From assembly GCA_046563655.1 (NCBI GenBank), contig CM102287.1:4030001-4094000 (forward strand): a stretch of 64,000 bases of DNA, given 5' to 3'. The notes under the pieces are model-generated. The model ran no database searches. It was not told where the DNA came from and saw only the letters and a list, made by a program, of their open reading frames with translations. Source of the DNA: Yuukianura sp. NJ FZ-2021. Its lineage: Eukaryota. Of this stretch, positions 24,780-64,000 are shown one piece after another. How positions within the stretch are numbered: position 1 is the first letter of the stretch; each line of letters opens with the position of its first letter. A program made the translations under genes and the position numbers.

Positions 24780-26717
24780 ATGCATGTTGTTGGCCTGTCA
24801 GGGATCGTGTGTCTTCTAGTATTCAACGAAAACCTGCAGATGACCTGCACCCAACCTCCTCGACCTTGTGAACTAGACAAAGCAACTGGAACTTGGCGTA
24901 AGATACACTCTCTGTGACCTTTGACCTTAACAAAACTTAGGTTATAATAAATATATATTATATTGTATTAATATTATATATTATATGAATTGTTTCTCAG
25001 GTTGTGAAACCGTGTATCCATGTGATACGTCCAGACGACAACCAGTATGCCATTGTCCTGCTGCCCGACCAATTTGGACTGGGAATGGAACGGAATGTCG
25101 AAATGCAGAACTCGGTGAACAATGTATTGCGAACTGTAAGGTCGACGTGAATTTCCGCGAAATCCGCGACGTGAAAATTCCCTAAGGCGGTTTATAATTT
25201 CTTTAGACCATTGCACCACTCCCCTTCGCTGCATAAACCAAAAATGTGATTTGATACAAAACGACCAACGTAGCAGTTTAAACGGTTCCTGTGTAGATGA
25301 AAGTACATTGCCAACAATCTTTTGAACTTTTTTACTCTTTCAAAATTTTGATTTTTGAAAATTTTGATTCTTGAAATTTTTAAAGGTTCCTGTATTTCTG
25401 AACAACGTCTGATCTGCACAAACCAGATATGTTCTTGTCCAGTAGGATATGAATGGAACCAGAATGCTTGTGAGAGAAAGCCGAAAAGAACGTTTGGTGG
25501 AGCCTGCAAAACAAGTGGTAAAATTCAAAATTTCAAGAAAAAACAAAGTTTTATGTTTTCGATTTTGAATTTTTTTTTTCATAGACGACTGCACCGCAGA
25601 AAAAGGATTGGTATGCGTTAAACAAACATGCTCGTGTGAACCAGGCTTTATCTGGACCGAAGCCATTTGTGAACCCAAATCGAACCAGCCGCAGTGCGAT
25701 CCATCGGAATCACGTTAGATGACCTTTGACCTTAACAATTTTTTTTCTTGACCTTTGACCTTTATTTAGCAAACGAGTGTGAAAAAAATTCGATGCAAAT
25801 GGAATGTGACAAAACGGAAAGAATTTGTCGCTGTCCAGCAGACATGGAATTCTCTGAAATTACACAAGCTTGTAGGCGGAAAGCTGGAGAGAAGTGTGAG
25901 GTCAACGGTCAAGTGCAAGATGACCTCTGCGCAAGTCAGCATTGCAACAACACACAGATTGCTTATGTCTGCGCATGTCGACATCCCAATGGAGTCGCAA
26001 AAACTTGGTCATCTGATCCTGGTCAGGAGTGTGTCACTGACTACTTCCACATGCCCTGTAATGGTTAGCGACATTAAGAACTTATATTCCCCAAAAATAA
26101 TTTTGTAAAAAAAATTTCGAAATTCATTTTTTTAAATTTTGTTTAGGATCGAATGACGAGTGTCGTCCAGCGACATTCAACGCTAGTCGCGAAGGACTCA
26201 TTTGCAAAGACAATTTGTGTCAATGTGACCCAAAATTAAACTACAGAAGAGGCTACTGCGTCGAAGCCAATCTTCTGTTCGACGAACCGTGTGACTCAAG
26301 TAAGTGACCTTGACCTTTGACCTCAAATTTGGATGACCTTTGACCTGGAGTTAATTTGGATTCACTTTTGTAGATGGATTTCGTCCTACCTGCCGGGGAG
26401 ATGCTGAGACGTCGCTGACTTGTCGAGATGTTGGAGGAGGAGACTTCAGATGCGTGTGTCTCTGGCGTGAAATGACGATACGCGGGAAAAGAGAAACTGT
26501 TGCGTTGAGCTGGAATGCTGCCGAGAAGAAGTGTGACCTCAAACCAACTGGGGAACGCTGCAACGGAAACTATGAGTGTCGAAGTGGCGTGTGTCGTGTG
26601 ACATGTCAAGCTCCCAAGACTGTCCAACACCAAGCGAATTCAACTGGAACGAAAATTAGCAACTTAGTTCTTATTCCATTTAGCACAATTTTCGTAGTTT
26701 CTTTCGGTACGGACTGA
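24780..26717 (+). CDS. Cys-rich EB-module-like surface protein, copy 1 (most divergent), 8 exons, signal peptide and GPI-like tail
   Basis: MHVVGLSGIVCLLVFNENLQ...; exons from 24780, 25001, 25207, 25386, ~25585, ~25770, ~26147 and ~26374, joined by phase-1 GT-AG introns; repeated C-x5-6-C-x4-CxC-x2-G-x2-W-x4-C; hydrophobic C-terminus with no cytoplasmic tail. Confidence 0.85.
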
Positions 26718-26966
26718 ATTAAAAGTTTTTGAATTTCGAAAATTGCCAGATTTCAGGCCAAAAAAATTTCAAAGAGTTTGAAAAATATACAGTAGATACT
26801 ATAAACTAATGCAACGTCGTCTGAGTGATAGCTATTCCCTGACTTATTTTGTTTACTGAATAACCAGTTTTCAAAACAGGAATTCAAATTTTAAAAGTCA
26901 CACATTTTGAAAAACGGAACTTTCTAAAAACAATTCTAAACCTTTAACCAAATTTTTTTTTTGGAA

Positions 26967-29087
26967 ATGTTCTGCGTTCTCTCCGCAATAATTTTCCTTG
27001 TAGTCTTCTACGGAAACCACCTTGAGCAGTCCTATGTCGCCGGTCAGGGTCAAGCACCACCCTGTGAAGAACGTGAACCCGGAAAACAATGTACGTAAGC
27101 TTTTGCGTGACCTTTGACCTTCTCCAAATTGAGTTAAGTTGACCTAGTTATGCTATGAATTGGTATCCTAGGTAATTAGTTTAGACTTGACGTTGCTACA
27201 ACTTAACGACTCGTCATTTCAGTTTGTCAACGCCTTTACCCGTGCACTAAGACTGGTCGGCCATGTTGTCCCTATGGCACACCAATTCGGGAAAAGGAAG
27301 GAACGAGCAACTGTCGCAAAGCCAATGCCGGAGAACCATGCAATGCCGATAGTACAGCAATCACTACATAAATTTTTTTCAAAAAAAAAAATTCAAAAAA
27401 ATGTGTAGTTTTTAAAAGAAAACTTTTTGAACTTTGTTTCTTTTAAAAAACTGTTTTTCTTTTTAGTGCATTGTGCCTCCGCTAATTGTGACATAGTCAA
27501 AAAGCAATGTAATGCGGAAGGGAAGCCAACACAGAATAAGACCGAGAACATCAATGGTCCCTGTGTGGATGACAGTTCGTTTTTGAAATTTTGTTCAAAT
27601 TCTATTCAAATTCTTATCATTTCAAAATTTTAATTCTTTTTTGAAAATTCTGTAGGTTCTTGCGATCGTAAACAAAGTTTGGTCTGCAGGGATAAGAAAT
27701 GTTCCTGCAAATCAGGATTTTTTTGGTCAAAAATCGTATGTGACAGAGTCTCCAAGAAAACGTTTAACGGAACATGCACAACAGACAGTAAATTTGAAAA
27801 AAAGTTGATCTCTTTTTTCAAAATTTTGAGTTTATGCTATTTTTTGAAAAATTAGGCGACTGCATCACAGAGCGACAACTGAAATGTATCAACAAAAAAT
27901 GTGGGTGTGCCAAAGATTTTATTTGGTCCGAACAAATTTGTAAAGCAAAAAAGGAGCAAACAGAATGTGATCCACTTGCCGAAGGTTAGTTGACCTTTGA
28001 CCTAACTTTTTTGATCTTTTGACCTGCTGAGACTTTTGTTTTGTGAATTAGTCAACGAATGTACACAAAAGTCGAACCAAATGGAATGTGACGACAACGA
28101 TCAAATTTGTCGCTGTCCACTGGACATGGAATTTTCTTCAGCGACGCAGTCGTGTAAGCTCCAAGCTGGAAAAAACTGTACGACCAACAACACTATGGAC
28201 CATGACCGCTGTGCAAGTCAACTGTGTGAAGCAAACGGAACAGGTTATATTAAATCTAATAATTATAATCTATAAATTATATTAAATATATAAAATATAT
28301 TAACCTCAGATTATACTTGCGCATGTCCACAAGTCGATGGAGTCACGAAAATTTGGTCATCTGACCCAGAAGGATGTCTCACTGACTACTTCAAGTTCGC
28401 CTGCACACGCACAGGTTGCTCCATATACAAATCTTTTCCTAAAAACCACTTTTTCAAAAAGTTTGAATTTTTGTAACTTCTTCTTTGAATTTTTTACACT
28501 TTTTTTTTTGAATTTTAGGAACTAGCGACGAGTGTCGTCCGGGAAGATTCAACTACAATCGTGAAGGACTCATTTGCAAAGACAATTTGTGTCAATGTGA
28601 AAAAGGTTTGACCTACCGTCGAGGCTACTGCGTCAAAGCTGACCTCCTGTTCAACCAGCCTTGTGACGTTAGTGAGTGACCTTGACCTTTGACCTCAAAT
28701 TTCTTTGCATGATCTTTGACCTCGAGTTAGTTTGGATTCATTTGTACTTTTGTAGATGGAATTCGTCCTACCTGCAAGGCAGATGCTGACTTGACTTGTC
28801 GCGATGTGGGAGGTGGAGACTTCAGATGCGTGTGTCTCTTGCGTGACGTGACCGTGCGAAACAGAAGAGAGACTGTTGCGTTGACGTGGAATGCTGACGA
28901 GAAGAAATGTGACCTCAAACCGCCTGGGGAACGGTGTAATGGAGCCTACGAGTGTCGAAGTGGCGACTGTAAAGTGACATGTCAAGTAGCCTTGCCTAAA
29001 CGACAACGAGCTACCTCGACTGGAACCAAAATCAGGAACTACGTATTTCTTATAATTCTATTCAGTGTGATTGTCACTCATTTTTAA
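26967..29087 (+). CDS. Cys-rich EB-module-like surface protein, copy 2 (extra intron in exon 6)
   Basis: MFCVLSAIIFLVVFYGNHLEQSYVAG...; same exon series; AT-rich intron at 28244-28309; ends ...STGTKIRNYVFLIILFSVIVTHF*. Confidence 0.85.
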
Positions 29088-29239
29088 TATATGTATTGAC
29101 GGCAATAAATAAACCATACGGAAGTAGCAAAAGGAAGAGAAAACAAGCCGGAAGTAATGCACTTCCGGTCAAACCGGAAACGAATTAATCACCCCCAGCC
29201 AGAATTCTCAAAATTTCAAGTTTTTCAAAAAAAAATTAG

Positions 29240-29792
29240 GATCCGCCGACGAGTGTCGTGCAGGAATTTTAACACGCGTCGTCAAGGCCTCATTTGCAAA
29301 AACCACATTTGCCAATGTGATGAAGGTTTGACCTACAAACGAGGCTACTGCGTCCTAGCTAACCTACTCTACGGCGATCCCTGTGACCCGGGTGAGTGAC
29401 CTCGACCTTTGACCTCTAGTTAGTTTAGATTCATTTGTACTTCTTTAGATGGATTTCGTCCCAGCTGTCGGGGAGATGCTGAGACGTCGCTGACTTGTCG
29501 AGATGTGGGAGGAGGAGACTTCAGATGCGTGTGTCTCTGGCGTGAAATGACGATACGCGGGAAAAGAGAAACTGTTGCGTTGAGCTGGAATGCTGCCGAG
29601 AAGAAGTGTGACCTCAAACCAACTGGGGAACGCTGCAACGGAAACTATGAGTGTCGAAGTGGAGTCTGTAAAGTGACATGTCAAGCACCCAAGACTGTCC
29701 AACACCAAGCGAATTCAACTGGAACGAAAATTAGCAACTTAGTTCTTATTCCATTTAGCACAATTTTCGTAGTTTCTTTCGGTACGGACTGA
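29240..29792 (+). other. Orphan 3' half of an array gene (exon 7 plus intact terminal exon); partial duplicate or alternative last exons
   Basis: Acceptor ttag at 29236-29239, exon-7 homolog, intron, then a terminal exon nearly identical to that of copy 1 (…NSTGTKISNLVLIPFSTIFVVSFGTD*); no upstream exons 1-6. Confidence 0.75.
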
Positions 29793-30220: not shown

Positions 30221-32330
30221 ATGTGTTCTGCTGTCTCCACAATCATTTTCCTTGTAGTCTTCTACGGAAACCACCTTGAGCAGTCCTATGTCGCCGGTCA
30301 AGGTAACGAAGGTGAACCACCACCCTGTATAGGTGAACCCGGACAACAATGTACGTAAGCTTTTGCGTGACCTTTGACCTTTGACCTTCTCCAAATTGAG
30401 TTACTAACCTAGTTATGCTATGAGTTGGTACCCTATGTACTTAGTTTACACTTTACCTTGACAAACCTAACGACTCGTCATTTCAGTTTGTCAAGGCCTT
30501 TACCCGTGCAAGAAGAATGAACGGCCTTGTTGTCCCTTTGAAAAACCAATTCGGGAACAGGAAGGAACGAACAACTGTCGCAAAGCCAATGCCGGAGAAC
30601 CATGCTTAGAGAAGAGTAAAGCAATCACTACATAAATCACATAGATTTTTTCAAAAAAAAATCAAAAAAAAATGTGTAAAGTTTTTAAAAGTAAACTTTA
30701 CATTTTTTTGAATTTTGTTTCTTTTAAACAATTGTTTTTCTGTGTAGAGCATTGTGCGTCTGATAATTGTGACATAGCCAAACAACAATGTAAAGCGGAC
30801 GGGAAGCCACCAAAACAGAATAAGACCGAGAACATCAATGGTCCCTGTGTGGATGACAGTTCGTTTTTGAAATTTTGTTCAAATTCTATTCAAATTCTTA
30901 TCATTTCAAAATTTTAATTCTTTTTTGAAAATTGTATAGGTTCTTGCGATCGTAAACAAAGTTTGGTCTGCAGGGATAAGAAATGTTCCTGCAAAACAGG
31001 ATTTTTTTGGTCAGAAATCGTATGTGACAAAGTCTCCAAGAAAACGTTTAACGGAACATGCACAACAGACAGTATGTTTCAAATTTGAAAAAAAGTTTAA
31101 CCTCTTTTCAAAATTTTGAGTTTATGCTATTTTTTGAAAAATTAGGCAACTGCATCACAGAGCGACAACTGAAATGTATCAACAAAAAATGTGGGTGTGC
31201 CAAAGATTTTATTTGGTCCGAACAAATTTGTAAAGCAAAAAAGGAGCAAACAGAATGTGATCCACTTGCCGAAGGTTAGTTGACCTTTGACCTAACTTTT
31301 TTTGACCTTTTGACCTGCTGAGACTTTTGTTTTGTGAATTAGTCAACGAATGTACACAAAAGTCGAACCAAATGGAATGTGACGACAACGATCAAATCTG
31401 TCGCTGTCCACTGGACATGGAATTTTCTTCAGCGACGCAGTCGTGTAAGCTCCGCGCAGGACAAAACTGTACGACAAATAACACTATGGACCATGACCGC
31501 TGTGCAAGTCAACTGTGTCGAATAAACGAAGCAGAATCAGAATCCACACATTATACTTGCGCATGTCCACAAGTCGATGGAGTCACGAAAATTTGGTCAT
31601 CTGACCCAGAAGGATGTCTCACTGACTACTTCAAGTTCGCCTGCACACGCACAGGTTGCTCCATATACAAACCTTTTACCTAAAAACCACTTATTTCAAA
31701 AAGTTTGAATTTTTGGAACTTTTTTTTTCCGAATTTGTTCAACTCTTTTTTGAATTTTAGGATCCAGCGACGAGTGTCGTCCGGGAACATTCAACCACGA
31801 TCGTGACGGACTGATCTGCAAAGACAATTTGTGTCAATGTGAAAAAGATTTGACTTACCGCCGAGGCTACTGCGTCAAAGCTGACCTCCTGTTCAACCAG
31901 CCTTGTGACGTTAGTGGGTGACCTTGACCTTTGACCTCAAATTTTTTTTCCCTGACCTTTGACCTCGACTTAGTTTGAATTTATTTGTACTTTTGTAGAT
32001 GGAATTCGTCCTACCTGCAAGGCCGATGCTGACTTGACTTGTCGAGATGTGGGAGGTGGAGACTTCAGATGCGTGTGTCTCTTGCGTGAAATAACCGTGC
32101 GAAACAGAAGAGAGACTGTTGCGTTGACGTGGAATGCTGACGAGAAGAAATGTGACCTCAAACCGCCTGGGGAACGGTGTAATGGAGCCTACGAGTGTCG
32201 AAGTGGCGACTGTAAAGTGACATGTCAAGTAGCCTTGCCTAGACGACAACGAGCGACATCGACTGGAACCAAAATCAGGAACTACGTATTTCTTATAATT
32301 CTATTCAGTGTGATTGTCACTCATTTTTAA
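30221..32330 (+). CDS. Cys-rich EB-module-like surface protein, copy 3
   Basis: MCSAVSTIIFLVVFYGNHLEQ...; near-identical to copy 2 over much of its length, but exon 6 is uninterrupted. Confidence 0.85.
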
Positions 32331-32494
32331 TGTTTTGACGGTAATAAATAAACTATCGTAAACGCCATACCTAAGTAGCGAAAGGAAACTAGAGAAGACA
32401 ACCCGGAGGTGGTGCACTTCCGCTCAAACCGGAAACGAATGAATTACCCCCAACCAAAATTTTCAAAATTTCAAGTTTTTCAAAAAAAAATTAG

Positions 32495-32858
32495 GATCCG
32501 CCGACGAGTGTCGTGCAACAATTCTTAACACGCGTCGTCAAGGACTCATTTGCAAGAGCCACATTTGTCAATGTCGTGAAGGTTTGAACTACACGAGAGG
32601 CTACTGCGTCCTAGCTAACTCGTTGTTCGACGATCCCTGTGACCCGGGTGCGTGACCTTGACCTTTGACCTCAACTTTCTTTGCATGACCTTTGACTTCG
32701 AGTTAGTTTGGATTCATTTGTACTTTTGTAGAATGTAAAGTACATGTCAAGCACCCAAGGCTGTCCAACACCAAGCGAATTCAACTGGAACGAAAATTAG
32801 CAACTTAGTTCTTATTCCATTTAGCACCATTTTAGTAGCTTCTTTCGAAACGGATTGA
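32495..32858 (+). pseudogene. Second orphan 3' half; terminal exon with a ~200-nt deletion
   Basis: Exon-7 homolog from 32495. After the acceptor (~32731) the sequence jumps directly to tgtaaagtacatgtcaagcaccc, missing the DGFRP...ECRSG block. Confidence 0.75.
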
Positions 32859-33570: not shown

Positions 33571-35734
33571 ATGCATTCTGTTCTCTCCGCAATCATTTTC
33601 CTTCTAGTCTTCTACGGAAACCACTTTCAGCAGTCCTACGTCGCCGGTCAGGGTCAAGCACCACTCTGCGAAGGTGAACCCGGATGTACGTAAGCTTTTG
33701 CGTGACCTTTGACCTTCTCCAAATTGAGTTAAGTTGACCTAATTAGTTATACTTTAAGTTGGTACCCTATGAAGTTACTTGACGTTGATACAACTTAACG
33801 ACTTGTCATTTCAGTTTGTCAAGGCCTTTACCCGTGCAATAAGAATGAACGGCCTTGTTGTCCCTTTGGAGAACCAATTCAGGAAGGAGAGAGAAGCTGC
33901 CGCAAAGCAAATGGCGGAGAACCATGCGACCGGAATAGTACAGCAATCACTACATAAATTACATACATTTTTTCAGAAAGATGTTTCTAAAAGACAACTT
34001 TACATTTTTTTTAAAATTGTGTTTCTTTTAAAAATCTGTTTTTCTGTGTAGTTCATTGTGAGTCTGCTAATTGTGACAAAGACAAAAAACAATGTGATGG
34101 GGGCGGGGGAGGGAAGCCAAAACAGAATAAGACGGAGGACGTCGATGGGCCATGTGTGGATGACAGTTCGTTTTTGAAATTTCGAAATTTTGTTCTTTTC
34201 AAATTTTTATCATTTCGAAATTTTGATTCTTTTTTGAAAATTCTGTAGGGTCTTGCGATCCTAAACAAAGTTTGGTCTGCAAGAATAAGAAATGTTCCTG
34301 TAAACCAGGATTCATTTGGTCAAAAAACGTATGTGACAGAGTCTTCAACAAAACTTTTAGAGGAACATGCACAAAAGACAGTATGTTTCAAATTTGAGAA
34401 AAAGTGGACCTTTTTTTCAAAATTTTGAGTTTGTGCTGTTTTTGAAAAATTAGGCAACTGCATCACAGAGCGACAACTGAAATGTATCAACAAAACATGT
34501 GGGTGCGCCAAAGATTTTATTTGGTCCGAAGCAATTTGTGAAGCCAAAGTGAAGCAGACGGAATGTGATCCACTTGCCGAAAGTTAGTTGACCTTTGACC
34601 TAATTTTTTTTGACCTTTTGACCTATTGAGGCTTTTTTTGCGAATTAGCAAACGTGTGTACACAAAGTTCAACCCAAATGGAATGTGACGAAAAGGAAAA
34701 AATTTGTCGCTGTCCACTGGACATGGAATTTTCTTCAGCGACGCAGTCGTGTAAGCTCCAAGCAGGAAAAAACTGTACGACCAACAACACTATGGACCAT
34801 GACCGCTGTGCAAGTCAACGGTGTGAAGCAAACGGAACAGGTTATATTAAATCTATAAATATATTAATTATTATCTAATAATTATAATCTATAAATTATA
34901 TTAAATATATAAAATATATTAACCCCAGATTATACTTGTGCATGTGGACAAGTCGATGGAGTTGCGAAAATTTGGTCATCTGACCCAGGTCGAGGATGTG
35001 TCACTGACTACTTCATGCTCCCCTGCACACGCCCTGGTTACTCCATATACAAATCTTGTCCTAAAAAACCACTTTTTCAAAAAGTTTGAATTTTTTACTT
35101 TTTTTTCTTCTAAATTTGTTCAACTTTTTTTGAATTTTAGGATACAGGGACGAGTGTCGCCCGGGGAGATTTAACGCCAGTCGTGACGGACTCATTTGCA
35201 AAGACTATTTGTGTCAATGTGAAAAAGATTTGACCTATCGCCGAGGCTACTGCGTCAAAGCTAACCTCCTGTTCAACGGTCGCTGTGACCCGGGTGAGTG
35301 ACCTTGACCTTTGACCTCAACTTTCTTTGCATGACCTTTGACCTGGAGTTAGTTTGGATTCATTTGCACTTTTTGTAGATGGATTTCGTCCTACCTGCCG
35401 GGGAGATGCTGAGACGTCGCTGACTTGTCGAGATGTGGGAGGTGGAGACTTCAGATGCGTGTGTCTCTTGCGTGACGTGACCGTGCGAAACAGAAGAGAG
35501 ACTGTTGCGTTGACGTGGAATGCTGACGAGAAGAAATGTGACCTCAAACCGCCTGGGGAACGGTGTAATGGAGCCTACGAGTGTCGAAGTGGCGACTGTA
35601 AAGTGACATGTCAAGTAGCCTTGCCTAGACGACAACGAGCTACCTCGACTGGAACCAAAATCCTGAACGGCGCATTTCTGATAATTCTATTTAGCCTGAT
35701 TGCCACTCAAATTTGTGTGCCCAAAGATTTTTAA
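33571..35734 (+). CDS. Cys-rich EB-module-like surface protein, copy 4 (extra intron in exon 6)
   Basis: MHSVLSAIIFLLVFYGNHFQQ...; AT-rich intron at 34841-34928; terminal ORF 35354-35734. Confidence 0.85.
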
Positions 35735-36058: not shown

Positions 36059-36375
36059 CTTGTGGTGCATTTCCTGTATGATTGGTTAGGCGCTCAAAAA
36101 ATTACGACCACACTTTTCGCATTAGCATACGCTGCTCCACATCCCGAGAGTTTGCTATTTGACGAATCTTCAACCGTTTTGCCGTACGAAGCAAAAGAAG
36201 GCAGAAATCCAAGGATTTCTGAAACGTCTTCCAGAAAACCTATGTTTTCTGAAGGAAGGGTCTTGTTTTGGTCCGAAAGCAAACTCTCGGGATGTGTAGC
36301 AGCGTATGCTAATGCGAAAAGTGTGGTCGTAGTTTTTTGAGCGACTAACCAATCAGGCAATAAATGCACCAAAAG
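36059..36375. mobile_element. Fold-back/MITE-like element with ~100-bp inverted arms
   Basis: 36059-~36163 is the reverse complement of ~36271-36375 with few mismatches, which is why the ORF track shows mirror-image ORFs. Two small hairpins lie in the loop. No TSD resolved. Confidence 0.75.
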
Positions 36376-36728: not shown

Positions 36729-38683
36729 ATGTACACTGTATGCTCCTTGACCGTTTTCCTTCTAGTTTTCAGCGGAAACTACGTTCAGAAGACATACGCC
36801 GCTACAGAGGATCTCCCACCGTGTGAACTAGTAAAAAAATTCATGTACAAGGATTATCGTAAGCTTTTTGTGACCTTTGACCTTTCAACTTTTGACCTTG
36901 ACACCATTTAACTGATCCATTTGGTAGTTTGCCAAGGTCTATTCCAATGCAATCATAACGTAACTCCACCCGTCTGCTGTCCACGGGAGAAACCATGGCT
37001 GGAGGATGGAGGAAACTGTCGCAAAAGCAAAAAGGGAGATCCATGCACAGAATCATGTACACAAATCACACATTTCCAGAAACTGAAGAATTAAGAGATT
37101 AGTTCTAAAAACTAAAAACTAATTTTTTATTGCAATATTTTTGAAGATCATTGTGAAAATGAGGACTGTGACACCTCAATGGGAAGATGTCGTCACCCCC
37201 CGGATGAACAAAAATTCGGTGAAGGCTGTTTCATTGGATGTTCGTTTTCGAAATTTAGTTCTATTTCAAATTTTTTCAAAATTTTGATTTTTTTTCTAAA
37301 TTATGTATAGTTACTTGCGATGTTAAGGAGCATCTGGCATGCACCGAAAAGAGATGTGTCTGCGAAGAAGGATTTGAATGGAACCAGACGGCATGCGTCA
37401 AAAACAGAGTCCCCAAGAAAACGATTACCGCAGGCTGCGAAACGAATAGTATGCTTCAAATTTAAAAAAATAAAATTCAAAATTTTGAGTTTCTCCTGTT
37501 TTTGAAAACTAGAAGACTGCGACAAAAAGCGACAACTGAAATGTATCAACCAAAAATGCGACTGTGAACCAGGCTTTAGTTGGACAGAAGCAATTTGTAA
37601 AGCCAAATCAGAACTGCCAACATGCGATCCATCCGTATTTCGTAAGTTGACCTTTGACCTTGAAAATGAAGTTGGTTTGACCTTTGACCTTTGGTGTTTT
37701 TTTAACATAGCAAACGAGTGTCCACACGATTCGAAGCAAATGGAGTGTGACAAAGATCAGCTCGTTTGTCGCTGTCCCCAGGACATGGAATTTTCTCCAT
37801 CGATGAAGGCGTGTAAACTCAAAGCAGGACAATACTGTGAGTTTAACGGTACACGCGAACATGACCGCTGCGCAAGTCAACAATGTGGTAGCGAGACAGA
37901 CTCCAGCGATAACAACTGCGCATGTCATCACCAGAATGGAATCACACAAATCTGGTCATCAGGCCAAGGTTGTGTCACTGACTACTTTGGCCTTACTTGT
38001 TCAGGTCACTCCTTACACAAACCTTTTCATAAAAAGGGTCTTCTTTTTAAAGTATTTGAATTTTTTAAATTTCAGGATCCCATTCCGAGTGTCGCCTGGC
38101 GACATTTAACACGAATCGTGAAGGGCTCATTTGCAAAGACAACATTTGTCAATGTGATGAAGGTTTGACCTACCTGAGAGGCTACTGCGTCGTAGCTAAC
38201 CTGACGTTCGGCGATCGCTGTGACCCGGGTGGGTGACCTTGACCTTTGACCTCAAATTTCTTTGCATGACCTTTGACCTCGAGTTAGTTTGGATTCATTT
38301 GTACTTTTGTAGAAGGAATTCGACCTACCTGCAAGACAGATGCTGACTTGACTTGTCGAGATGTTGGAGATGGACTTTATGGAGGTGTTGCACTTGCAGA
38401 CTTTAGATGCGCGTGTCTCTTGCGTGAAGTGCCCGTGCGTGGGACAAGACGTACTTTTTTCTTGAACTGGAATGGTACCCAGAAGAAGTGTGGCCTCAAA
38501 TCTCATGGGGAATGGTGCAGGGGAGACTTCGATTGTCGAAGTGGAGCCTGTAAATTCAATTGTATAGGTGAATATCCAGGTGACCGATCGACTGGAGCGA
38601 CAATCTACGTATACGATACGAAAGTCTACAATAACTACGTATTTCTTATAATCCTATTTAGCGTGATTGTCACTCATTTTTAA
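36729..38683 (+). CDS. Cys-rich EB-module-like surface protein, copy 5
   Basis: MYTVCSLTVFLLVFSGNYVQKTYA...; 8 exons; divergent terminal exon with an 8-aa insertion. Confidence 0.85.
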
Positions 38684-39211: not shown

Positions 39212-41162
39212 ATGTACGTTGTTCGGGCCGCGATCGCTTTCATTCTAGTGTTAAGCGGAAACGACGTTCAGATAACATACGCCGCTACAACAGATCTCCC
39301 ACCGTGTATACAATTAAGTAACGGAGAATATCGTAAGCTTTATCGTGACCTCTTTGACCTTTCAACTTTTGACCTTTGACCTTGACACAACTTAAGTGAT
39401 TCATTTGTTAGGTTGTCAAGATATATTCAAATGCAATCATAATGTAAATCCGCCCGTTTGCTGTCCATGGGATACACCACAAGTTACACCCAAGGGAATG
39501 TGCTTCAAAAGCGACGTCGGGCAACCATGTACTTCACCAGGTACATAAATCACAGATTTCCAAAACAAAAAAAAAGTTTAAAGCTTCTTTCAACTTAGAA
39601 ATTGAAAAATACTTTTTTAATTGCAATATTTTTTTCAGATCATTGTATATATGACCGCTGTGACCGAAAAATTTCCCGATGTGATGTCGCCAGGAAGGGA
39701 ACCTACGGTGCTTCCTGCGCCATTGACCGCGGTATTTGAAATTTGGTTCTATTTCAAATTGTTTTAAAATTTTGATTTTTTTTTAAAATTCGGATTAGGT
39801 TCCTGCAATATTAAACAGAGGCTAGTTTGCGTCAGGATGATATGTCGCTGCGAAGCAGGAACAGAATGGAAAAATAAGACATGCGTCAGCATCACGAAAA
39901 GAACGCATAACAGACCATGCATAACAACCGGTTGCATTCAAATTCAAAACTAAAAAAAATTAAAAATTTTGAATTAACTCTTGTTTTTTGAAAAACTAGA
40001 CGACTGCATCACCGAGCGACAACTGAAATGTATCAAGAAAAAATGCGACTGTGAACCAGGCTTTAGTTGGATCGAAGCAATTTGTAAAGCCAACGCAGAA
40101 CAGACAGAATGTGATCCATTCGTATTTCGTAAGTTGACCTTTGACCTTGGAAATTAAGTTGGTTTGACCTTTGACCTTTGGTGTTTTTTTAACATAGCAA
40201 ACGAGTGCCCACACGATTCGAAGCAAATGGAGTGTGACAAGAAGCTGCGCGTTTGTCGCTGTCGCCAGGACATGGAATATTCTCCGTCGATGAAGTCGTG
40301 TAAACTCAAAGCAGGAGAAAACTGTTTGATCAACAACACTTTGGAGCATGACCAATGCTTAAGTCAAAAATGTGGTAACGAAACAGAGTCCACCAATCAA
40401 ACATGCGCATGTCCACAAGACAATGGAATCCCAGCAATCTGGTCACCTGACCCACCAGGGTCATGTGTCACTGACTACTTCGGCTTTACTTGTACAGGTT
40501 ACACCATACACAAATCTTTTCACAAAATGCGGTTTCTTTTTAAAGTATTGGAATTTTTTGAAATTCAGGATCCAATTCCGAATGTCGCTCGGCAAGATTT
40601 AACAAGACTCGTCAAGGCCTCATTTGCAAAGACAACAATTGTAAATGTGCTGAAGGTTTGACCTACATAAGAGGCTACTGCGTCGTAGCTAACCTGACGT
40701 TCGGCGATCGCTGTGACCCGGGTAAGTGGCCTTGACCTTTGACCTCAAATTTCCTTGCCTGACCTTTGACCTGGATTTAGTTTGTATTCATTTGTACTTT
40801 TTGTAGATGGAGTTCGTCCTACTTGCAAGACAGATGCTGACTTGACTTGTCGAGATGTTGGAGGAGGAGACTTTAGATGCGTGTGTCTCCAGCGTGTAAT
40901 GACCGTGCGTGGGAAAAGACATACTGTGTTGTTGACCTGGAATGGTGCCCAGAAGAAGTGTGACCTCAAATCGCATGGTGAACGGTGTAAGGAAGCCATC
41001 GAATGTCGAAGTGGAGTCTGTCAAGAGACATGTGTAGGCGAACAACCCTTGCGTAGCCGACTATCGACTGGGGCGACAATCTATGAATACAATACGAAAA
41101 TCTACGACAACTACTACTTATTTCTTATTATTCCATTTAGCATGATTGTCACACTCTTTTAA
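39212..41162 (+). CDS. Cys-rich EB-module-like surface protein, copy 6
   Basis: MYVVRAAIAFILVLSGNDVQITYA...; same exon series; terminal ORF ends 41162. Confidence 0.85.
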
Positions 41163-49656: not shown

Positions 49657-49743
49657 TGGAGGGAGTGATTTTTGTTTGAAATTCGAAATATTTTAGACTA
49701 ATTTTTTGATTCACAATTCATAATTTTATTCCATGTTTTTGAA

Positions 49744-51704
49744 ATGTACGCAGTTGGCTCCTTGATCATTTTCATTCTAGTCTTCAGCGGAAGCTACGTT
49801 CAGAAGACTTCCGCTGCTATACAGAATAGCCCCACGTGTGAACCAAACAGTGAAGGACAACTACGTAAGCTTTTTATGATCTTTGACCTTTCAACTTTTG
49901 ACCTTGGCACAACTGAATTTATCCGTTTGTTAGGTTGTCAAGGTTTGTTCAAATGCGATCATAGTGTAAATCCGCCCGTCTGCTGTGCAGGGGACGCTCC
50001 AATTTTGGACAGAGGATACTGTCGCAAAGGTTACGGCGGGGAACTATGCACAAACTCATGTACAGAAATCACACATTTTCAGATCAAATGAAAAAAAAAG
50101 TTTGTTTTTTTAACTTAAAAATTGCAAAACGTTTTCTTTTTTTTTCTTTTTTTTTATAATTGTAACATTTTGGAAGATCATTGTAAATCCGGCAACTGTG
50201 ACACCAGTCAACGCAAATGTACTGGTCCGAACCCAAATGATGCAAAATTCGGTGCTCCTTGTATCGATGACGGTTCGTTTTCGAAATCTGGTTCTTATTT
50301 CAAATTCTTTCAAAATTTTGATTTTTTTTTGTAAATTATGTGTAGTTACTTGCGATCCTAAGGCGAATCTGGTATGCACCAATAGAAAATGTTCATGCCC
50401 AGAAGAATTAGAATGGGACGTGACGGCATGCGTCGTCAAAGGGACGAAGAAAACGAGGAAAACGATTAACGGAACGTGCACAGCAGATGGTAACCTTCAA
50501 ATTCAAAACTTTTGAAAAAAGTTTTGAATTTTTTGTTTTTTTTTTAAACTAGACGAATGCATCAAAGAGAGACGCCTGAAATGTATCAATGAAACTTGCA
50601 ACTGTGAACCAGGCTTTAGTTGGATCGAAGCAATTTGTAAACCCAAAGAAAAACAGACAACATGTGATCCAGACGTATTTCGTAAGTTGACCTTTGACCT
50701 TAGAAATCAAGTTGTTTGACCTTTGACCTTTGGTGTTTTTTTAACATAGCAAACGAGTGTCCACATGATTCGAAGCAAATGGAGTGTGACAAAGTTCAGA
50801 AAGTTTGTCGCTGTCGCCAGGACATGGAATATTCTCCATCGATGAAGGCGTGTAAACTCAAAGCAGGAGAAAACTGTTTGATCAACAACACTTTGGAGCA
50901 TGACCAATGCTTAAGTCAAAAATGTGGTAACGAAACAGAGTCCACCAATCAAACATGCGCATGTCCACAAGACAATGGAATCCCAGCAATCTGGTCACCT
51001 GACCCACCAGGGTCATGTGTCACTGACTACTTCGGCTTTACTTGTACAGGTTACACCATACACAAATCTTTTCTTAAAATGCGGTTTCTTGTTAAAGTAT
51101 TTGAATGTTTTGAATTTCAGGATCCAATTCCGAATGTCGCCCGGCGACATTTAACACGAGTCGTCAAGGCCTCATTTGCAAAGACAACTTTTGTCATTGC
51201 GAGGAAGGTTTGACCTACCTGAGAGGCTACTGCGTCGTAGCTAACCGGACGTTCGGCGATCCTTGTGACCCGGGTGAGTGACCTTGACCTTTGACCTCAA
51301 ATTCCTTTGCATAACCTTTGACCTCGAGTTAGTTTGCATTCATTTGTACTTTTGTAGATGGATTTCGTCCTACTTGCAAGACTGATGCTGACTTGACTTG
51401 TCGCGATGTTGGAGGAGGAGACTTTAGATGCGTGTGTCTCCAGCGTGTAATGACCGTGCGTGGGAAAAGACATACTGTGTTGTTGACCTGGAATGGTGCC
51501 CAGAAGAAGTGTGACCTCAAATCGCATGGTGAACGGTGTAAGGAAGCCATCGAATGTCGAAGTGGAGTCTGTCAAGTGACATGTGTAGGTGAACAACCCT
51601 TGCGCAGCACACTAGCTACCGACGGGGGCGAAAATCTACGTATACAATATCCTAATTCCGTATTTTTTATTGTTCCATTTAGCATGATCGTCACAGTCTT
51701 TTAA
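49744..51704 (+). CDS. Cys-rich EB-module-like surface protein, copy 10
   Basis: MYAVGSLIIFILVFSGSYVQKTSA...; same exon series. Confidence 0.85.
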
Positions 51705-51986: not shown

Positions 51987-53923
51987 ATGTACGTTGTTCG
52001 CTTCTTGATCGTTTTCATTCTAGTCTTCAGCGGAAACTGCGTTCAGAAGACTTCCGCTGCTGAAGAGGATCGCCCACCGTGTGAACAAAACAGTGAAGGA
52101 CAATATCGTAAGCTTTTTTTTATGACTTGTGACCTTTCGACTTTTGACCTTGACACAACTGAATTTATTCGTTTGTTAGGTTGTCAAAGTTTGTTCGAAT
52201 GCGATCATACTGTAAATCCGCCCGTCTGCTGTCCATGGAACGCTGCAATCATGGACGGAGGAAACTGTCGCACAGGCCACCACGGGGAACCTTGCACAAA
52301 ATCATGTACAGAAATCAAACATTTTCAGAACAAATGAAAAAAAAAGTTTTTTTTAACTTAAAAATTGCAAAATGTTTTTTTTATAATTGTAACATATTTT
52401 TGAAGATCATTGTGCATCCGGCACCTGTGACACCAAAAAACGACAATGTCGTGGCCAGAACCCAAATACTTTAAAACTCGGTGATCCTTGTATCGATGAC
52501 TGTTCGTTTTCGAAATCTTTTTATTTCAAATTCATTCAAAATTTTGATTATTTTTTAAATGTTGTATAGATTCTTGCGATAGTGCGATCCAGGAGCGACT
52601 GGTCTGCAGCAATGGGAAATGTTCATGCCCAGGAGGATTAGAATGGAACCAGGCGGCATGTGTCGTCAGAGGCCCGAAGAAAATGATTAACGGAACCTGC
52701 TCAATAAGTGGTAACGTTCAAATTCAAAACTACAAAAAAAAATAAAAAGTTTGAATTTTTTGGTTTTTGAAACTAGACGAATGCAGCGGAGAGCGACAAC
52801 TGAAATGTATCAATAAAACATGTAACTGTGATCCAGGCTTTAGTTGGACCGAAGCAATTTGTAAAGCCAAAGCACATCAGACAAAGTGCGATCCATCCGT
52901 ATTTCGTAAGTTGACCTTTGACCTTGAAAATGAAGTTGGTTTGACCTTTGACCTTTGGTGTTTTTTTAACATAGCAAACGAGTGTCCTCATGATTCGAAG
53001 CAAATGGAGTGTGACAAAGATCAGAAAGTTTGTCGCTGTCGCCAGGACATGGAATACTCTCCATCGATGAAGGCGTGTAAACTCAAAGCAGGAGAGAACT
53101 GTTTGATCAACAACACTTTGGAGCATGACCAATGCTTAAGTCAACAATGTCTTAACGAGACAGGGTCCACCAATCACACATGCGCATGTAAAGACAACAA
53201 TGGTGTCTCACAAATCTGGTCATCAGGCGAAGGTTGTGTCACTGACTATTATCGCTTTACCTGTTCAGGTCACTCCTTACACAAATCTTTTCACAAAAGG
53301 CGTCTTCTTTTTAAAGTATTTGAATTTTTTGAATTTCAGGATCCGATTCCGAATGTCGCCCGGCAACATTCAACACTAGTCGTCAAGGGCTCATATGCAA
53401 AAACCACATTTATTGTCAATGTAATGAAGGTTTGACCTACCTGAGAGGCTACTGTGCCGTAGCTAACCGGACGTTCGGCGATCGCTGTGACCCGGGTAAG
53501 TGACCTTGACCTTTGTCCTCAAATTAGTTTGCATGACCTTTGACCTGGATTTAGTTTGGATTCATTTGTACTTTTGTAGATGGAGTTCGTCCTACTTGCA
53601 AGACAGATGCTGACTTGACTTGTCGAGATGTTGGAGGAGGAGACTTTAGATGCGTGTGTCTCCAGCGTGTAATGACCGTGCGTGGGAAAAGACATACTGT
53701 GTTGTTGACCTGGAATGGTGCGCAGAAGAAGTGTGACCTCAAATCACATGGTGAACGGTGCAAGGAAGCCATCGAATGTAGAAGTGGTGTGTGTCAAGAG
53801 ACGTGTGTAGGCGAACAACCGTTACATAGCCGACTATCGACTGGGGCGACATTCGATACGAAAGTTTACAATAACTACGTATTTCTTATTATTCCATTTA
53901 GCATGATCGTCACACTCTTTTAA
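51987..53923 (+). CDS. Cys-rich EB-module-like surface protein, copy 11
   Basis: MYVVRFLIVFILVFSGNCVQKTSA...; same exon series. Confidence 0.85.
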
Positions 53924-59757: not shown

Positions 59758-61682
59758 ATGTACGCTGTTCGCTCCTTGATCGTTTTCATTCTAGTCTTCA
59801 GCGGAAGCTACATTGAGAAGACTTCCGCTGCTACAGAGGATCCCCCACCTTGTGAACCAGACAGTGAAGGGCAATATGGTAAGCTTTTTTATGACTTTTG
59901 ACCTTTCGACTTTTGACCTTGACACAACTGAATTCATCCGTTTGTTAGGTTGTCAAGGTTTGATTGAATGCAAGCCCTTCATCTGCTGTAAACTGGCGGT
60001 TCCGAAGCCGGACAGAGGAACATGTCGCTTAAGCTACGACGGGGATCCATGCAAGGAATCAAGTACAGACATCACACAATTCCAGAAAAAAATGAAACAA
60101 CGTTTCTTTTTTAAATTGCAATTTTTTTTTAATTCCAACACTTTTCAAGATCATTGTACATCCGGTTTCTGTGACACCAGCAAAGGCCAATGTCGTGGCG
60201 GGTATCCACCAAGACTTGGTGATGATTGTGCCAATGAATGTTCGTTTTTGAAATTATGTTCTATTTCAAATTCTTTGAAAATTTTGATTTTTTTTTGTAA
60301 ATTATGTATAGTTGCTTGCGATCCTAAGGCGCATATGGTATGCACCAATAGGAAATGTTCATGCCCAGAAGAATTAGAATGGGACAGGGACGTGACGGCA
60401 TGCGTCGTCAAAGGAACGAAGAAAACGAAGAAAACGATTAACGCAACCTGCACAGAAGATGGTAACGTTCAAATTCAAAATTTTTGAAAAAAGTTTTGAA
60501 TTTTTTGTTTTTTGAAACTAGACGAATGCATCAAAGAGCGACTACTGAAATGTTACAATGGAACATGCGACTGTGAACCAGGCTTTAGTTGGATCGAAGC
60601 AATTTGTAAACCCGTAGCAGAACAGACAAAATGCGATCCAAACACATTTCGTAAGTTGACCTTTGACCTTGAGAATGAAGTTGGTTTGACCTTTGACCTT
60701 TGGTGTTTTTAACATAGCAAACGAGTGTCCTCATGATTCGAAGCAAATGGAGTGTGACAAAGTTCAGAAAGTTTGTCGCTGTCGCCAGGACATGGAATAT
60801 TCTCCATCGATGAAGGCGTGTAAACTCAAAGCAGGAGAGAACTGTTTGATCAACGGTACACTGGAGCATGACCAATGCTTAAGTCAACAATGTGGTAACA
60901 ATGAGAAAGAGTCCACCGATCATAACTGCGCATGCCACAACCAGAATGGAATCCCGGAAATCTGGTCATCAGGCACACCAGGCAGTTGTGTCACTAACTA
61001 CTTCGACTTTACCTGTTCAGGTCACTCCTTACGCAAACCTTTTCATAAAAAGCTTTTTCTTTTTAAAGTATTTGAATTTTTGGAATTTCAGGATCCAATT
61101 CCGAATGTCGCCCGGAGACATTTAACACGAGTCGTCAAGGGCTCATTTGCAAAAACAACATGTGTAAATGTGAAGAAGGTTTGACCTACATAAGAGGCTA
61201 CTGCGTCGTAGCTAACCGGACGTTCGGCGATCCCTGTGACAAGGGTGAGTGACCTTGACCTTTGACCTCAACTTTCTTTGCATGACCTTCGACCTGGATT
61301 TAGTTTGTATTCATTTGTACTTTTTGTAGATGGAATTAGTCCTACTTGCAAGATAGATGCTGACTTGACTTGTCGCGATGTTGGAGGAGGAGACTTTAGA
61401 TGCGTGTGTCTCCAGCGTGTAATGACCGTGCGTGGGAAAAGACATACTGTATTGTTGACCTGGAATGGTGCCCAGAAGAAGTGTGACCTCAAATCGCATG
61501 GTGAACGGTGTAAGGAAGCCATCGAATGTCGAAGTGGAGTCTGTCAAGAGACATGTGTAGGCGAACAACCCGTGCCAATCCGACGATCGACTGGGACGAC
61601 AATCTACGTATACGATACAAAAGTCTACGCTAACTACATATTTCTTATCATTTCATTTAACATGATCCTCACACTCTATTAA
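59758..61682 (+). CDS. Cys-rich EB-module-like surface protein, copy 14 (chimera of copy-7-like 5' half and copy-12-like 3' half)
   Basis: MYAVRSLIVFILVFSGSYIEKTSA...; same exon series. Confidence 0.85.
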
Positions 61683-61944
61683 ATTTTTGGTGGTAACTGA
61701 AGAAAAACTTTTTAAACTTCCTTTTAGCTTCCTTTTTTTTTAAATTTTAGAAAAAAAAAGAATTTGAAGTGTTGAAAATAAATACAGTGTATCTCCCTGT
61801 ATATTCTGTTTCAAAATTGTTGAAACGATTGGATTTGAAAAAGATGATTGTGTTGGTGCCAGTCAGTCGTCGTGTGGTTGCTGGTTACAATAATAATAAA
61901 CCGGTTCTAAACCGCATATAATGAAGATAGCTCAGCGATAAGGC

Positions 61945-62135
61945 GTTGGAGGGGGGGGGTCTCCCGGGGGGTGCGGGGGTGAGTTCCCCCCGGGGTTGTA
62001 GAGGTAGGTTCCCACGGGTGTGCGGGGGTGGAATTCTCCCAGGGGTGTGGGATGTATCCCTCTATGTGTTCGTGGGGCGGGTCCCCCAGGCGTGTGGGGT
62101 GGGTCCCCCGGGGGTGTGGGCGTGTGTTCCCCCAC
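61945..62135 (+). repeat. Second copy of the G-rich minisatellite insert
   Basis: Near-identical to 58660-58850; part of a ~1.1-kb duplicated spacer. Confidence 0.8.
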
Positions 62136-62442
62136 TTCTCCGCTGGCAGGACGTTGAAATGAAAAAGAAGTTGACCTTTGACCAAGAACGAGGTCACTTG
62201 GGGTAATGTGATGGACACAAAAGTTGTTGGACTCGATGAGACGAACAACTTTTGTAGAAGTCATTTTCCATGTTGCCGGGGCTGAAACCGGTTGACCTTG
62301 ACCTTTGACCCAGAAGGAGTTTAGCCACCGGGATCATATTCAATAGTGATCATGTCACAGTCTTTTAATTTTTTGTGGTTACTAACTGAACATAAAAATT
62401 TTCAAGTTCGAAATCTTAGCTTCTTTTTTTCTAATTTCAGAA

Positions 62443-62736
62443 TTTTTTTTTAACTAATCGTAAGTACTATAAAATTATATTTATTAATAGAAAAACAGTT
62501 TCATGATACTTATGGGCTAAAGGTAGTATACTCCGTATAAATCTTCGCCGGGTGGAAGAGTTCCTAAGATGAAGGCACAATTTCCTGTTTGAATGCCAAT
62601 GCTGATTGTTGGTAGCAGAAAAGCAGTGGCTCTTGGTTCTCCAGTGTATTCAACAAGGCGTCGACTTCAGTAGCTTCAACCCTTCGTTTCCGAAAACTCC
62701 AGTAGATTCAACAGCTATGATTGAAACGATGAAGTG
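62443..62736 (-). mobile_element. Second (co-duplicated) copy of the truncated CRE-like non-LTR fragment
   Basis: Near-identical to 59160-59452 with the same TSD ATTTCAGAA (62434-62442, 62737-62745). Confidence 0.75.
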
Positions 62737-62993
62737 ATTTCAGAAAATTTTTTGGAGTTTTAAAAATACGTTTTTTTATTATTTTGCTTCAAAATTTGAT
62801 TAGGGGTTGGCCGCGTAGTCGCCATGGATGGGACTACCGTAAACCGACGCATTTGTGTACCACAAACAGTGAAAAGTCAAAAAGGAGCAGGAGGGAGTGA
62901 TTTTTTTGTTTTTTTTTGAAAATAGAAATTTTTGAAAGTAAATTTTTTTTTTCAATTCCTAATTTTATTAGAGTTTTATTCCATGTTTTTGAA

Positions 62994-64000
62994 ATGTACG
63001 CTGTTCGCTCCGTGATCATTTTCATTCTAGTCTTCAGCGGAAACTACGTTCAGAAGACTTCCGCTGCTGAAGAGGATCTCCCACCGTGTGTAAAAGACAG
63101 TGAAGGACAAGATCGTAAGCTTCTTTATGACTTTTGACCTTTCGACTTTTGACCTGGCACAACTGAATTCATCCGTTTGGTAGGTTGTCAAAGTGTGTTC
63201 AAATGCAATGATAAGGTAAAACCGCCCGTCTGCTGTCCATGGAACGCTCCAATTATGAGCGAAGGAAAGTGTCGCGCAGGCCTCGGCGGCGTGGATCCAT
63301 GCACGGAACCAAGTACAGAAATCACACATTTTCAGAACAAACAAAAAAAAGTGTTTTTTAACTTAAAAATAGTTTTTTTTTTAAATTGAAAAAATGTTTA
63401 ATTGTAAGAATATAAATATTCTTTTTTTAATAATTGTAACATTTTTGAAGATCATTGTATATCCGGTGACTGTGACACCAGCCAAGGCGAATGTCGTGGC
63501 GGGAGACCAAATCTCTCAACATACGGGGGCCATTGTATCAATAAAAGTTCGTATTCGAAATTTGATTCTATTTCAAATTATTTCAAAATTTTGATTTTCT
63601 TTTTAAATTCTGTATAGATAATTGCGATCCTAAGGAACTGGTCTGCACCAATACCAAATGTTCATGCCCAGCAGGATTAAAATGGAACCAGACGGCATGC
63701 GTTGCCAGAGGCCCGACGAAAACGATTAACGAACCCTGCTCAACGGATGGTAACGTTCAAATTCAAAACTAAAAAATAGAAATTTTTTTGAATTTTTTGC
63801 TTTTTGAAAAACTAGACGACTGCATCACCGAGCGACAGCTGAAATGTATCAACCAAAAATGCGACTGTGACCCAGGCTTTAGTTGGACCGAAGCAATTTG
63901 TAAAGCCAAATCAGAACTGCCAACATGCGATCCAGACGTATTTCGTAAGTTGACCTTTGACCTTGGAAATTAAGTTGGTTTGACCTTTGACCTTTGGTGT
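62994..64000 (+). CDS. Cys-rich EB-module-like surface protein, copy 15 (exons 1-5, cut by the window end)
   Basis: MYAVRSVIIFILVFSGNYVQKTSA...; the window ends in intron 5. Confidence 0.8.

What the first reader, a model, noticed from the sequence alone, without database searches (positions are those of the whole stretch)
24780..64000. Large tandem array of modular Cys-rich, probably GPI-anchored surface proteins: candidate undescribed diversified recognition/defence system
Seen: at least 15 head-to-tail genes of roughly 450-500 aa, each with a signal peptide, a string of Cys-rich modules and a terminal hydrophobic stretch after a small-residue STG site with no cytoplasmic tail. Most copies appear intact and are interspersed with partial and dead copies. 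Known: the C..C..CxC..G..W..C spacing resembles the EB module (Pfam PF01683), whose function is poorly understood, and birth-and-death tandem arrays with variable distal domains typify invertebrate immune and allorecognition loci. Inference: a lineage-specific variable surface receptor or ligand family; no function can be read from the sequence itself.
Basis: partly seen in the sequence, partly recalled or inferred. Interest (0 to 1): 0.85.

Follow-up and report, generated by a model that had tools for sequence, protein, structure and literature searches.

The report
Fast-evolving tandem surface-protein gene array
An arthropod carries twenty side-by-side copies of a gene for a cysteine-rich, probably lipid-anchored surface protein whose outer end changes unusually fast, as expected of proteins that bind something that keeps changing, but what they bind is unknown.

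Summary
The array is real and larger than reported. Fifteen intact genes start in the window (465-478 aa, 50-52 Cys, 8-9 exons, all phase 1, GT-AG), with five remnants between them. Five more genes follow over the next 18 kb, and five paralogues lie on two other contigs. Gene bodies are 75-95% identical, so this is not a duplicated haplotype. Each protein has a hydrophobic leader, EB-like six-cysteine modules and a GPI-type tail (judged by hydropathy only). New here: in the 11-copy subfamily, the membrane-distal exons 2-4 show positive selection (42% of sites at dN/dS about 3.4, 2dL 71; it survives gap trimming, multi-base changes and recombination simulations). They also diverge faster than neighbouring introns, while exons 6-8 are under purifying selection. 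Copies are recombinant mosaics. Simple counting gives only dN/dS 1.09 (0.84-1.43). No full-length relative was found in protein databases, and the nearest clusters are arthropod EB/PQN-25-like proteins. Best reading (about 0.5): a diversifying surface binding or decoy family facing microbes or parasites; a reproductive role is the main rival. No expression data could be obtained. The scan had noted probable paralogues on other DNA of this genome.

The parts
24780..26717 (+). Gene 1, 8 exons, 466 aa; long-branch member at the 5' edge of the array
26967..29087 (+). Gene 2, 9 exons (extra intron in exon 6), 467 aa; subfamily A
29236..29792 (+). Remnant: exons 7-8 only, like gene 1; exon 7 has a 1-base frameshift (read by eye)
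30221..32330 (+). Gene 3, 8 exons (30221-30350, 30487-30615, 30748-30858, 30940-31071, 31146-31274, 31343-31654, 31761-31913, 31999-32330), 475 aa; subfamily A; hand-built reference model
32494..32858 (+). Remnant: exon 7 plus an internally deleted, frameshifted exon 8
33571..35734 (+). Gene 4, 9 exons, 473 aa; subfamily A
36059..36375 (.). MITE-like insertion with 108-nt inverted arms, 89% complementary
36729..38683 (+). Gene 5, 478 aa; first of the 11-copy subfamily B
39212..41162 (+). Gene 6, 470 aa
41253..41960 (+). Dead remnant: promoter piece and fragments of exons 2, 4/5 and 8 with stops and deletions
42291..44219 (+). Gene 7, 468 aa; exons 2-4 are 1-2% from gene 14, exons 5-7 are 13-18% from it (mosaic)
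44590..46527 (+). Gene 8, 471 aa
46889..49009 (+). Gene 9, 465 aa; no STG, tail shared with gene 10
49744..51704 (+). Gene 10, 471 aa; no STG
51987..53923 (+). Gene 11, 468 aa
54220..56164 (+). Gene 12, 471 aa
56453..58411 (+). Gene 13, 475 aa
58533..59159 (+). Dead remnant: promoter piece, G-rich insert and 3' end piece; its 1.07-kb spacer is 97.5% identical to 61697-62759
59758..61682 (+). Gene 14, 470 aa
61820..62442 (+). Dead remnant, recent duplicate of 58533-59159
62994..64000 (+). Gene 15, exons 1-5 in the window; complete (470 aa) with the adjoining genome stretch L001
22098..24057 (+). Clic chloride-channel gene flanking the 5' end of the array (not part of the family)

Best explanation
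A lineage-specific family of GPI-type cell-surface proteins built from EB/EGF-like six-cysteine modules. The membrane-proximal modules (exons 6-8) act as a conserved stalk and anchor. The distal modules (exons 2-4) are the binding end and are driven to differ between copies. Unequal crossover and gene conversion create, delete and recombine copies; because every exon is phase 1, modules can be duplicated or swapped in frame. Most likely the distal end binds microbes or parasites at an epithelial or blood-cell surface, as a capture molecule, decoy or attachment site. With no cytoplasmic tail it would need a co-receptor or shedding to signal. Shown: gene anatomy, mosaicism, selection pattern, module-number change. 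Inferred: GPI anchoring, stalk role, expression, ligand and immune role.
For: Non-Cys identity among 11 subfamily-B copies is 0.46, 0.34 and 0.40 in exons 2-4 against 0.77, 0.76 and 0.79 in exons 6-8. Codon model M2a vs M1a on exons 2-4: 2dL 71.2, 42% of sites at omega 3.4; each exon alone is significant (15.6, 23.7, 32.5); M0 omega is 1.40 there against 0.46 and 0.56 in exons 6 and 7-8. The signal stays after removing gapped columns with 2-codon padding (30.5), allowing multi-base changes (27.1) and using 7 close copies (33.8-40.0); exons 6-8 give 3.2 under padding plus multi-base changes. Null simulations with recombination reached at most 5.5 (14 runs) and 11.4 (14 runs) against 55.6 observed. 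Exons 2-4 differ by 28-34% against 13-23% for introns 1-4. Recombination: PHI-like test, 0 of 500 permutations reach the observed value. Downstream copies carry 10-11 exons with extra modules. A TGTTTAC motif lies 103-132 bp upstream of the ATG in 9 of 21 upstream regions, across three subfamilies, which hints at maintained promoters. [quoted passage not shown]
Against: No ligand, tissue or infection data. Pairwise counting gives dN/dS 1.09 (95% bootstrap 0.84-1.43) for exons 2-4, which does not exclude neutrality; exon 5 also gives 1.13. The codon tests are my own code with fixed branch proportions and naive Bayes, and alignment error was not simulated. Short introns are themselves constrained, so they are an imperfect neutral yardstick, and synonymous divergence is also higher in exons 2-4 (0.355 vs 0.214). 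No kappaB-like site in 0 of 21 upstream regions (recalled motif). Positive selection with tandem duplication fits reproductive proteins equally well (own knowledge). Where EB-module transcripts have been placed, it was secretory tissue: wasp venom gland (PMC8228208 passage) and Anisakis pharyngeal region (PMC5763927 passages).
Confidence: 0.5

Rival explanations
1. Reproductive recognition proteins on sperm, egg or spermatophore, diversifying through sexual selection or conflict.
For: The same selection signature and GPI-type layout are typical of gamete-surface proteins (own knowledge). Two EB-module genes are female-specific in Cotesia, though in the venom gland.
Against: Twenty co-existing paralogues with mosaic distal ends suit a repertoire of specificities better than a single cognate partner. 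No expression data either way.
Confidence: 0.2
2. Barrier or matrix proteins (gut lining, cuticle, junction) amplified for dosage, with distal modules drifting under relaxed constraint rather than being selected.
For: Counting dN/dS of about 1 in exons 2-5. GPI-anchored Ly6 clusters in Drosophila include septate-junction proteins (PMC6600238 passages). Tick Bm86 has the same overall layout on midgut cells (PMC10537462 passages).
Against: An omega>1 class is significant in every test on exons 2-4 and is not reproduced by neutral simulations. Exons outrun their introns. All cysteines and reading frames are kept.
Confidence: 0.12
3. Shed or secreted effectors (antimicrobial, inhibitor or gland secretion) released from a membrane precursor.
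For: Basic residues sit just before the tail in most copies and in the C1 paralogues. Exons 2-4 have a positive net charge in 12 of 16 models. The C-terminal cap gives weak knottin-like structural matches (rmsd 0.8 over 24 residues, E 2.4; Z 2.2).
Against: A strict RxxR-before-STG pattern occurs in only 2 of 20 models. The structural matches are not significant.
Confidence: 0.1
4. A self-recognition or cell-identity code (allorecognition or neuronal wiring) using homophilic binding of the distal modules.
For: Diversified distal ends on a common stalk, in one cluster.
Against: Each gene has its own promoter, leader and tail, with no shared constant exon or cassette splicing. There is no signalling tail. 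Allorecognition loci are usually polymorphic between individuals rather than amplified (own knowledge).
Confidence: 0.08

Closest known systems
Arthropod EB-module proteins (Pfam PF01683; automatic name 'prion-like-(Q/N-rich) domain-bearing protein 25')
   Same: Six-cysteine modules with C-x-C and an aromatic residue before the last Cys. These are the nearest ESM Atlas clusters for two exon queries (0.86-0.89, lead level only). Lineage-specific EB families exist in Orchesella cincta (10 members, PMC4987106 Table S5 rows), with 3 adjacent genes in Microplitis demolitor (PMC4169385 supplement).
   Different: Here 20 tandem copies, one module-length exon each with the intron inside the module, and a positively selected distal end. 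Exon pieces stay below the Pfam cut-off. A profile of exon 6 found only two short unnamed relatives (E 7e-6 and 3.5e-4) and one repeat-protein hit among 1.84 billion representatives.
Drosophila Eater/Nimrod phagocytosis receptors
   Same: String of EGF-like repeats with microbe binding at the N-terminal end; positive selection reported for phagocytosis receptors.
   Different: No NIM consensus or CCxGY motif in 0 of 20 models (recalled motifs). No transmembrane segment with a cytoplasmic tail.
Tick Bm86/ATAQ
   Same: Signal peptide, EGF-like repeats, about 10% Cys, GPI anchor.
   Different: No sequence relationship was found. Bm86 is not described as a large tandem array in the passages read.
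Insect Ly6/uPAR gene clusters
   Same: GPI-anchored, Cys-rich, clustered by repeated duplication.
   Different: Different domain; no CCxxDxCN motif in 0 of 20 models (recalled motif).
Sea urchin Sp185/333 (SpTransformer)
   Same: Clustered genes with mosaic sequence from conversion and recombination (PMC3342357 passages).
   Different: Unrelated two-exon genes with demonstrated bacterial binding; no such evidence here.

Membership tests
EB module (PF01683) | Whole-protein score over the Pfam cut-off of 24.3 bits | tested here: inconclusive
   Only unspliced exon pieces could be scanned. 9 of 14 family exon pieces hit EB at 12.1-17.3 bits, nearly all on model positions 25-52, because introns cut each module. 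1 of 11 array ORFs hit. 12 array matches at 16.8-18.5 bits, none over the cut-off.
EB module (PF01683) | Module sequence resembles EB modules beyond cysteine spacing | tested here: met
   A profile was built from 37 modules of 10 EB-positive ORFs of this genome plus P0005 and P0006 (L014 and L015 left out as EGF-like and duplicate). It scores 15 of 16 spliced models at 15.9-28.7 bits and one at -1.0. 320 shuffles with cysteines fixed: mean -40.6, maximum 15.6. The signal comes mostly from two modules per protein.
EB module (PF01683) | EGF-like small beta-hairpin fold | tested here: inconclusive
   AlphaFold models of exon 6 (pLDDT 60) and exon 8 (pLDDT 78) are almost all short beta strands. 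Best matches are fibrillin, Pfs25 and thrombomodulin EGF domains at non-significant levels (E>=0.84, Z<=2.6). PMC-held preprint 10.1101/2024.07.08.602367 treats EB and EGF as a continuum (passage).
GPI-anchored proteins | N-terminal signal, small-residue omega site, spacer, terminal hydrophobic stretch without cytoplasmic tail | tested here: met
   Hydropathy only: N-terminal 11-mer mean 2.4-3.6; C-terminal 13-mer 2.2-2.8 ending 1-8 residues from the end in 15 of 15; STG at -23 to -35 in 13 of 15.
GPI-anchored proteins | Predictor call or PI-PLC release | not testable with these tools
   No SignalP or NetGPI available; no wet data.
Nimrod/Eater | NIM repeat consensus and CCxGY motif | tested here: not met
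   0 of 20 models (motifs recalled from memory).
Nimrod/Eater | Transmembrane segment with a cytoplasmic tail | tested here: not met
Ly6/uPAR | LU domain with terminal CCxxDxCN | tested here: not met
   0 of 20 models (recalled motif); no LU hit in Pfam scans of exon pieces.
Diversified invertebrate immune receptor families | Expression in immune or barrier tissue, induction, or microbe binding | not testable with these tools
   No RNA run was listed.
Diversified invertebrate immune receptor families | Multigene cluster with recombination and positive selection on the exposed domain | tested here: met

The most novel reading that the evidence does not exclude
A germline-encoded, combinatorially shuffled recognition repertoire of a soil arthropod built on EB modules rather than Ig, lectin or LRR domains. 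Phase-1 exon modules are swapped and duplicated between 20 tandem genes to give GPI-anchored binders of distinct specificity against microbes or parasites. It would be the first functional role for the EB module in immunity that my searches could find.
Probability: 0.25. Interest if true: 0.8.

Novelty: new variant of a known kind. Interest (0 to 1): 0.52.

Why it matters
The EB module is widespread in arthropods and nematodes but has almost no assigned function (22 papers in the library mention it). This array gives a ready test set: 20 natural variants with a shared stalk, a mapped hypervariable end and about 30 candidate selected sites. It makes the question 'what do EB proteins bind' directly testable, and would add a non-Ig scaffold to the short list of diversified invertebrate recognition families if the immune reading holds. 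Tandem, fast-evolving surface-protein clusters as such are common, which caps the score.

Tried and rejected
Assembly duplication: rejected, since the highest gene-body identity is 94.5%. Dscam- or protocadherin-like cassette splicing: rejected, since each copy has its own leader and tail. Introns as crossover anchors: breakpoints of the 20 strongest pairs fall in exons as often as in introns, and the max-chi test is confounded by rate differences, so this is not supported. TGACCTTTGA motif as array-specific: enriched (87 in 57 kb, all on the coding strand) but also found elsewhere. Word-index homologue searches with an exon 5-6 stretch and with the exon 8 alignment found nothing (weak evidence). 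P0001 (Biomphalaria repeat protein) was judged a chance hit by eye. The only metagenome match, L023, is a 15-residue match inside a Cys-poor, bacterial-looking ORF and was rejected. PDB sequence searches with both alignments gave nothing significant; fold searches gave no significant match, which excludes nothing. RNA: no RNA holder was listed, which is no evidence either way. Literature: ten searches found no description of this family or of selection on EB proteins; most subscription papers are not held. The Folsomia candida supplements had no EB term. One Orchesella supplement file was not searchable and another was cut. bioRxiv supplements were closed.
Full report
Setting. The window is G000:C5:4030001-4094000 of a 98.7-Mb, 22-contig animal genome. 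The flanking Clic exon matches Drosophila CLIC at E 5e-22 and nematode EXC-4 at 9e-8, so the host is an arthropod.

Observation. A self-comparison shows a unit of about 2.2-3.3 kb repeated from 24.8 kb to the window end. I built one gene by hand (30221-32330, 8 exons, 475 aa) and projected it with a spliced aligner. Fifteen full-length genes start in the window. All 15 have open frames, GT-AG introns, phase-1 junctions throughout, 465-478 aa and 50-52 cysteines. Genes 2 and 4 have an extra intron in exon 6. Five remnants lie between them, and a MITE-like element sits at 36059-36375. Gene bodies are 75-94.5% identical and proteins 48-90%, which rules out a duplicated haplotype.

Extent. The array continues about 18 kb beyond the window with five more genes. 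One has 8 exons, one 10, two 11 (563-612 aa, extra modules from exon duplication), and one lacks exons 2-3 and carries a Tc1/mariner-type insertion in an exon. Three searches of the genome found the same five further paralogues, four on C1 and one on C6 (counts are lower bounds). A tree of the last three exons of all 25 groups physical neighbours: subfamily A (genes 2-4), B (genes 5-15) and C (the last four), each with support 98-100, and the C1 genes apart. The places of C6 and gene 1 are unsure (long branches). This is local expansion with gene death.

Protein anatomy. Each protein has a hydrophobic leader, one or two shortened modules, six complete six-cysteine modules, a four-cysteine cap, a spacer and a 13-15-residue hydrophobic end (read from the alignment). 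There is no internal hydrophobic segment and no cytoplasmic tail; STG is present in 13 of 15. This is the GPI layout, but only hydropathy was computed. Introns fall inside modules, so single exons match only the second half of Pfam EB, below the cut-off (9 of 14 family pieces; 12 array matches). A profile built from 37 modules of EB-positive proteins scores 15 of 16 spliced models at 15.9-28.7 bits, against a maximum of 15.6 for 320 cysteine-fixed shuffles. The nearest language-model clusters are arthropod EB/PQN-25-like proteins, at lead level only. The genome holds many other EB genes: 28 of 66 matches pass the cut-off, none in the array. Structure models of exons 6 and 8 show short beta hairpins with only non-significant EGF-like and knottin-like matches.

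Relatives elsewhere. A full HMMER search with the exon-6 alignment returned 3 proteins at E<=0.001 among 1.84 billion. Two are short unnamed fragments with the same cysteine pattern, and one is an unrelated repeat protein. Word-index searches found none, and the metagenome scan gave one chance match. The subfamily therefore seems restricted to a poorly sampled lineage.

Evolution. In the 11 copies of subfamily B, non-cysteine identity is 0.34-0.46 in exons 2-4 and 0.76-0.79 in exons 6-8. Pairwise counting gives dN/dS 1.09 (0.84-1.43) for exons 2-4 and 0.56 (0.44-0.70) for exons 5-8; taken alone the first figure does not exclude neutrality. Site models, in my own implementation on IQ-TREE trees, give 2dL 71.2 for M2a over M1a in exons 2-4, with 42% of sites at omega 3.4 and 32 of 118 sites above 0.9 posterior. 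Weaker signals appeared in exons 5, 6 and 7-8 (8.8-10.6). With gap padding and multi-base changes, exons 2-4 keep 27.1 (11 copies) and 33.8 (7 copies; genes 5, 6, 8 and 14 left out), while exons 6-8 fall to 3.2. Neutral simulations with separate exon trees or six permuted blocks reached 5.5 and 11.4 at most (14 runs each) against 55.6 observed. Exons 2-4 differ by 28-34% while introns 1-4 differ by 13-23% and introns 5 and 7 by 3% and 8%; short introns are constrained, so this is supporting rather than decisive. The copies are mosaics: genes 7 and 14 differ by 1-2% in exons 2-4 but 13-18% in exons 5-7, and other pairs share exon 5, 6, 7 or 8. A PHI-like test is beyond all 500 permutations. Breakpoints are not confined to introns.

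Expression. No RNA run was listed, which says nothing. Indirect signs are intact frames under purifying selection, and a forkhead-like TGTTTAC motif 103-132 bp upstream of the ATG in 9 of 21 upstream regions (10 of 21 anywhere in 260 bp; 0.06 expected per region, but copies are not independent; motif name recalled).

Mechanism. Shown: a conserved proximal part, a selected distal part, in-frame module gain and loss, and exchange between copies. Inferred: the proteins sit on a GPI anchor, the proximal modules are a stalk, and the distal modules bind a fast-changing partner. A microbe or parasite partner is my best guess (0.5), by analogy with Eater, whose N-terminal EGF-like repeats bind microbes (PMC3048390, passages), and with Sp185/333 mosaics (PMC3342357, passages). 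A reproductive role (0.2), a barrier role with drift (0.12), shed effectors (0.1) and a self-recognition code (0.08) remain open.

Comparison with what is known. It works like other clustered, diversifying surface families. It is not a Nimrod or Ly6 member by recalled motifs (0 of 20). It is best filed as an EB-like subfamily, with formal Pfam membership unresolved. Precedents for EB expansions: a 10-member lineage-specific family in Orchesella cincta (PMC4987106, supplement rows only); nine EB-module genes, three adjacent, in Microplitis demolitor (PMC4169385, passages and supplement). EB transcripts were placed in wasp venom gland (PMC8228208, one passage) and Anisakis pharyngeal tissue (PMC5763927, passages). 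Bm86 shares the overall layout (PMC10537462, passages), as do Drosophila Ly6 clusters (PMC6600238, passages). Ten literature searches found no account of this family or of positive selection on EB proteins, within a library that lacks most subscription papers; one Orchesella supplement and all bioRxiv supplements were unseen.

Verdict. A real, well-preserved array with solid evidence of diversifying selection on its distal modules; function untested. New variant of a known kind; interest 0.52.

Noticed in passing
window 6061-19733, - strand: Large gene with an FYVE_2 exon (12942-13217, E 6e-10), a 1487-aa low-complexity exon (7872-12332) and two C2 exons: synaptotagmin-like/rabphilin-type layout (family name recalled).
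   Followed up: partly
window 22098-24057, +: Clic gene directly upstream of the array.
   Followed up: partly
introns 1, 5 and 7 of the array genes: TGACCTTTGA occurs 87 times in the 57-kb array, always on the coding strand; intron 5 is only 3% diverged while its flanking exons are 13-14% diverged. Unexplained.
   Followed up: partly
about 100-170 bp upstream of each ATG: Two conserved islands (a GTCGTC/GTCGCC motif and TTGTTTAC) persist across subfamilies in otherwise poorly alignable flanks.
   Followed up: partly
window 58660-58860 and 61940-62140: G-rich degenerate 22-25-bp tandem repeat inserted in two dead remnants that are 97.5% identical.
   Followed up: no
L001 about 8285-9707: Tc1/mariner-type element with terminal inverted repeats and TA target duplication inside an exon of the array gene starting at L001:7458.
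   Followed up: partly
L005 4697-7785: The single C6 paralogue (414 aa, 5 exons, Pro/Gly linker) lies just downstream of a gene that looks like uricase (recognised by eye, not tested).
   Followed up: partly
L016, L017, L019, L020, L022: A separate family of long, largely single-exon EB-module ORFs (290-665 aa) is spread over C1-C7; one has a 49% identical unnamed relative in a metagenome.
   Followed up: partly
window 2-361, - strand: ORF beginning with a short basic tail and a hydrophobic segment, like a type II membrane protein; no Pfam hit.
   Followed up: no
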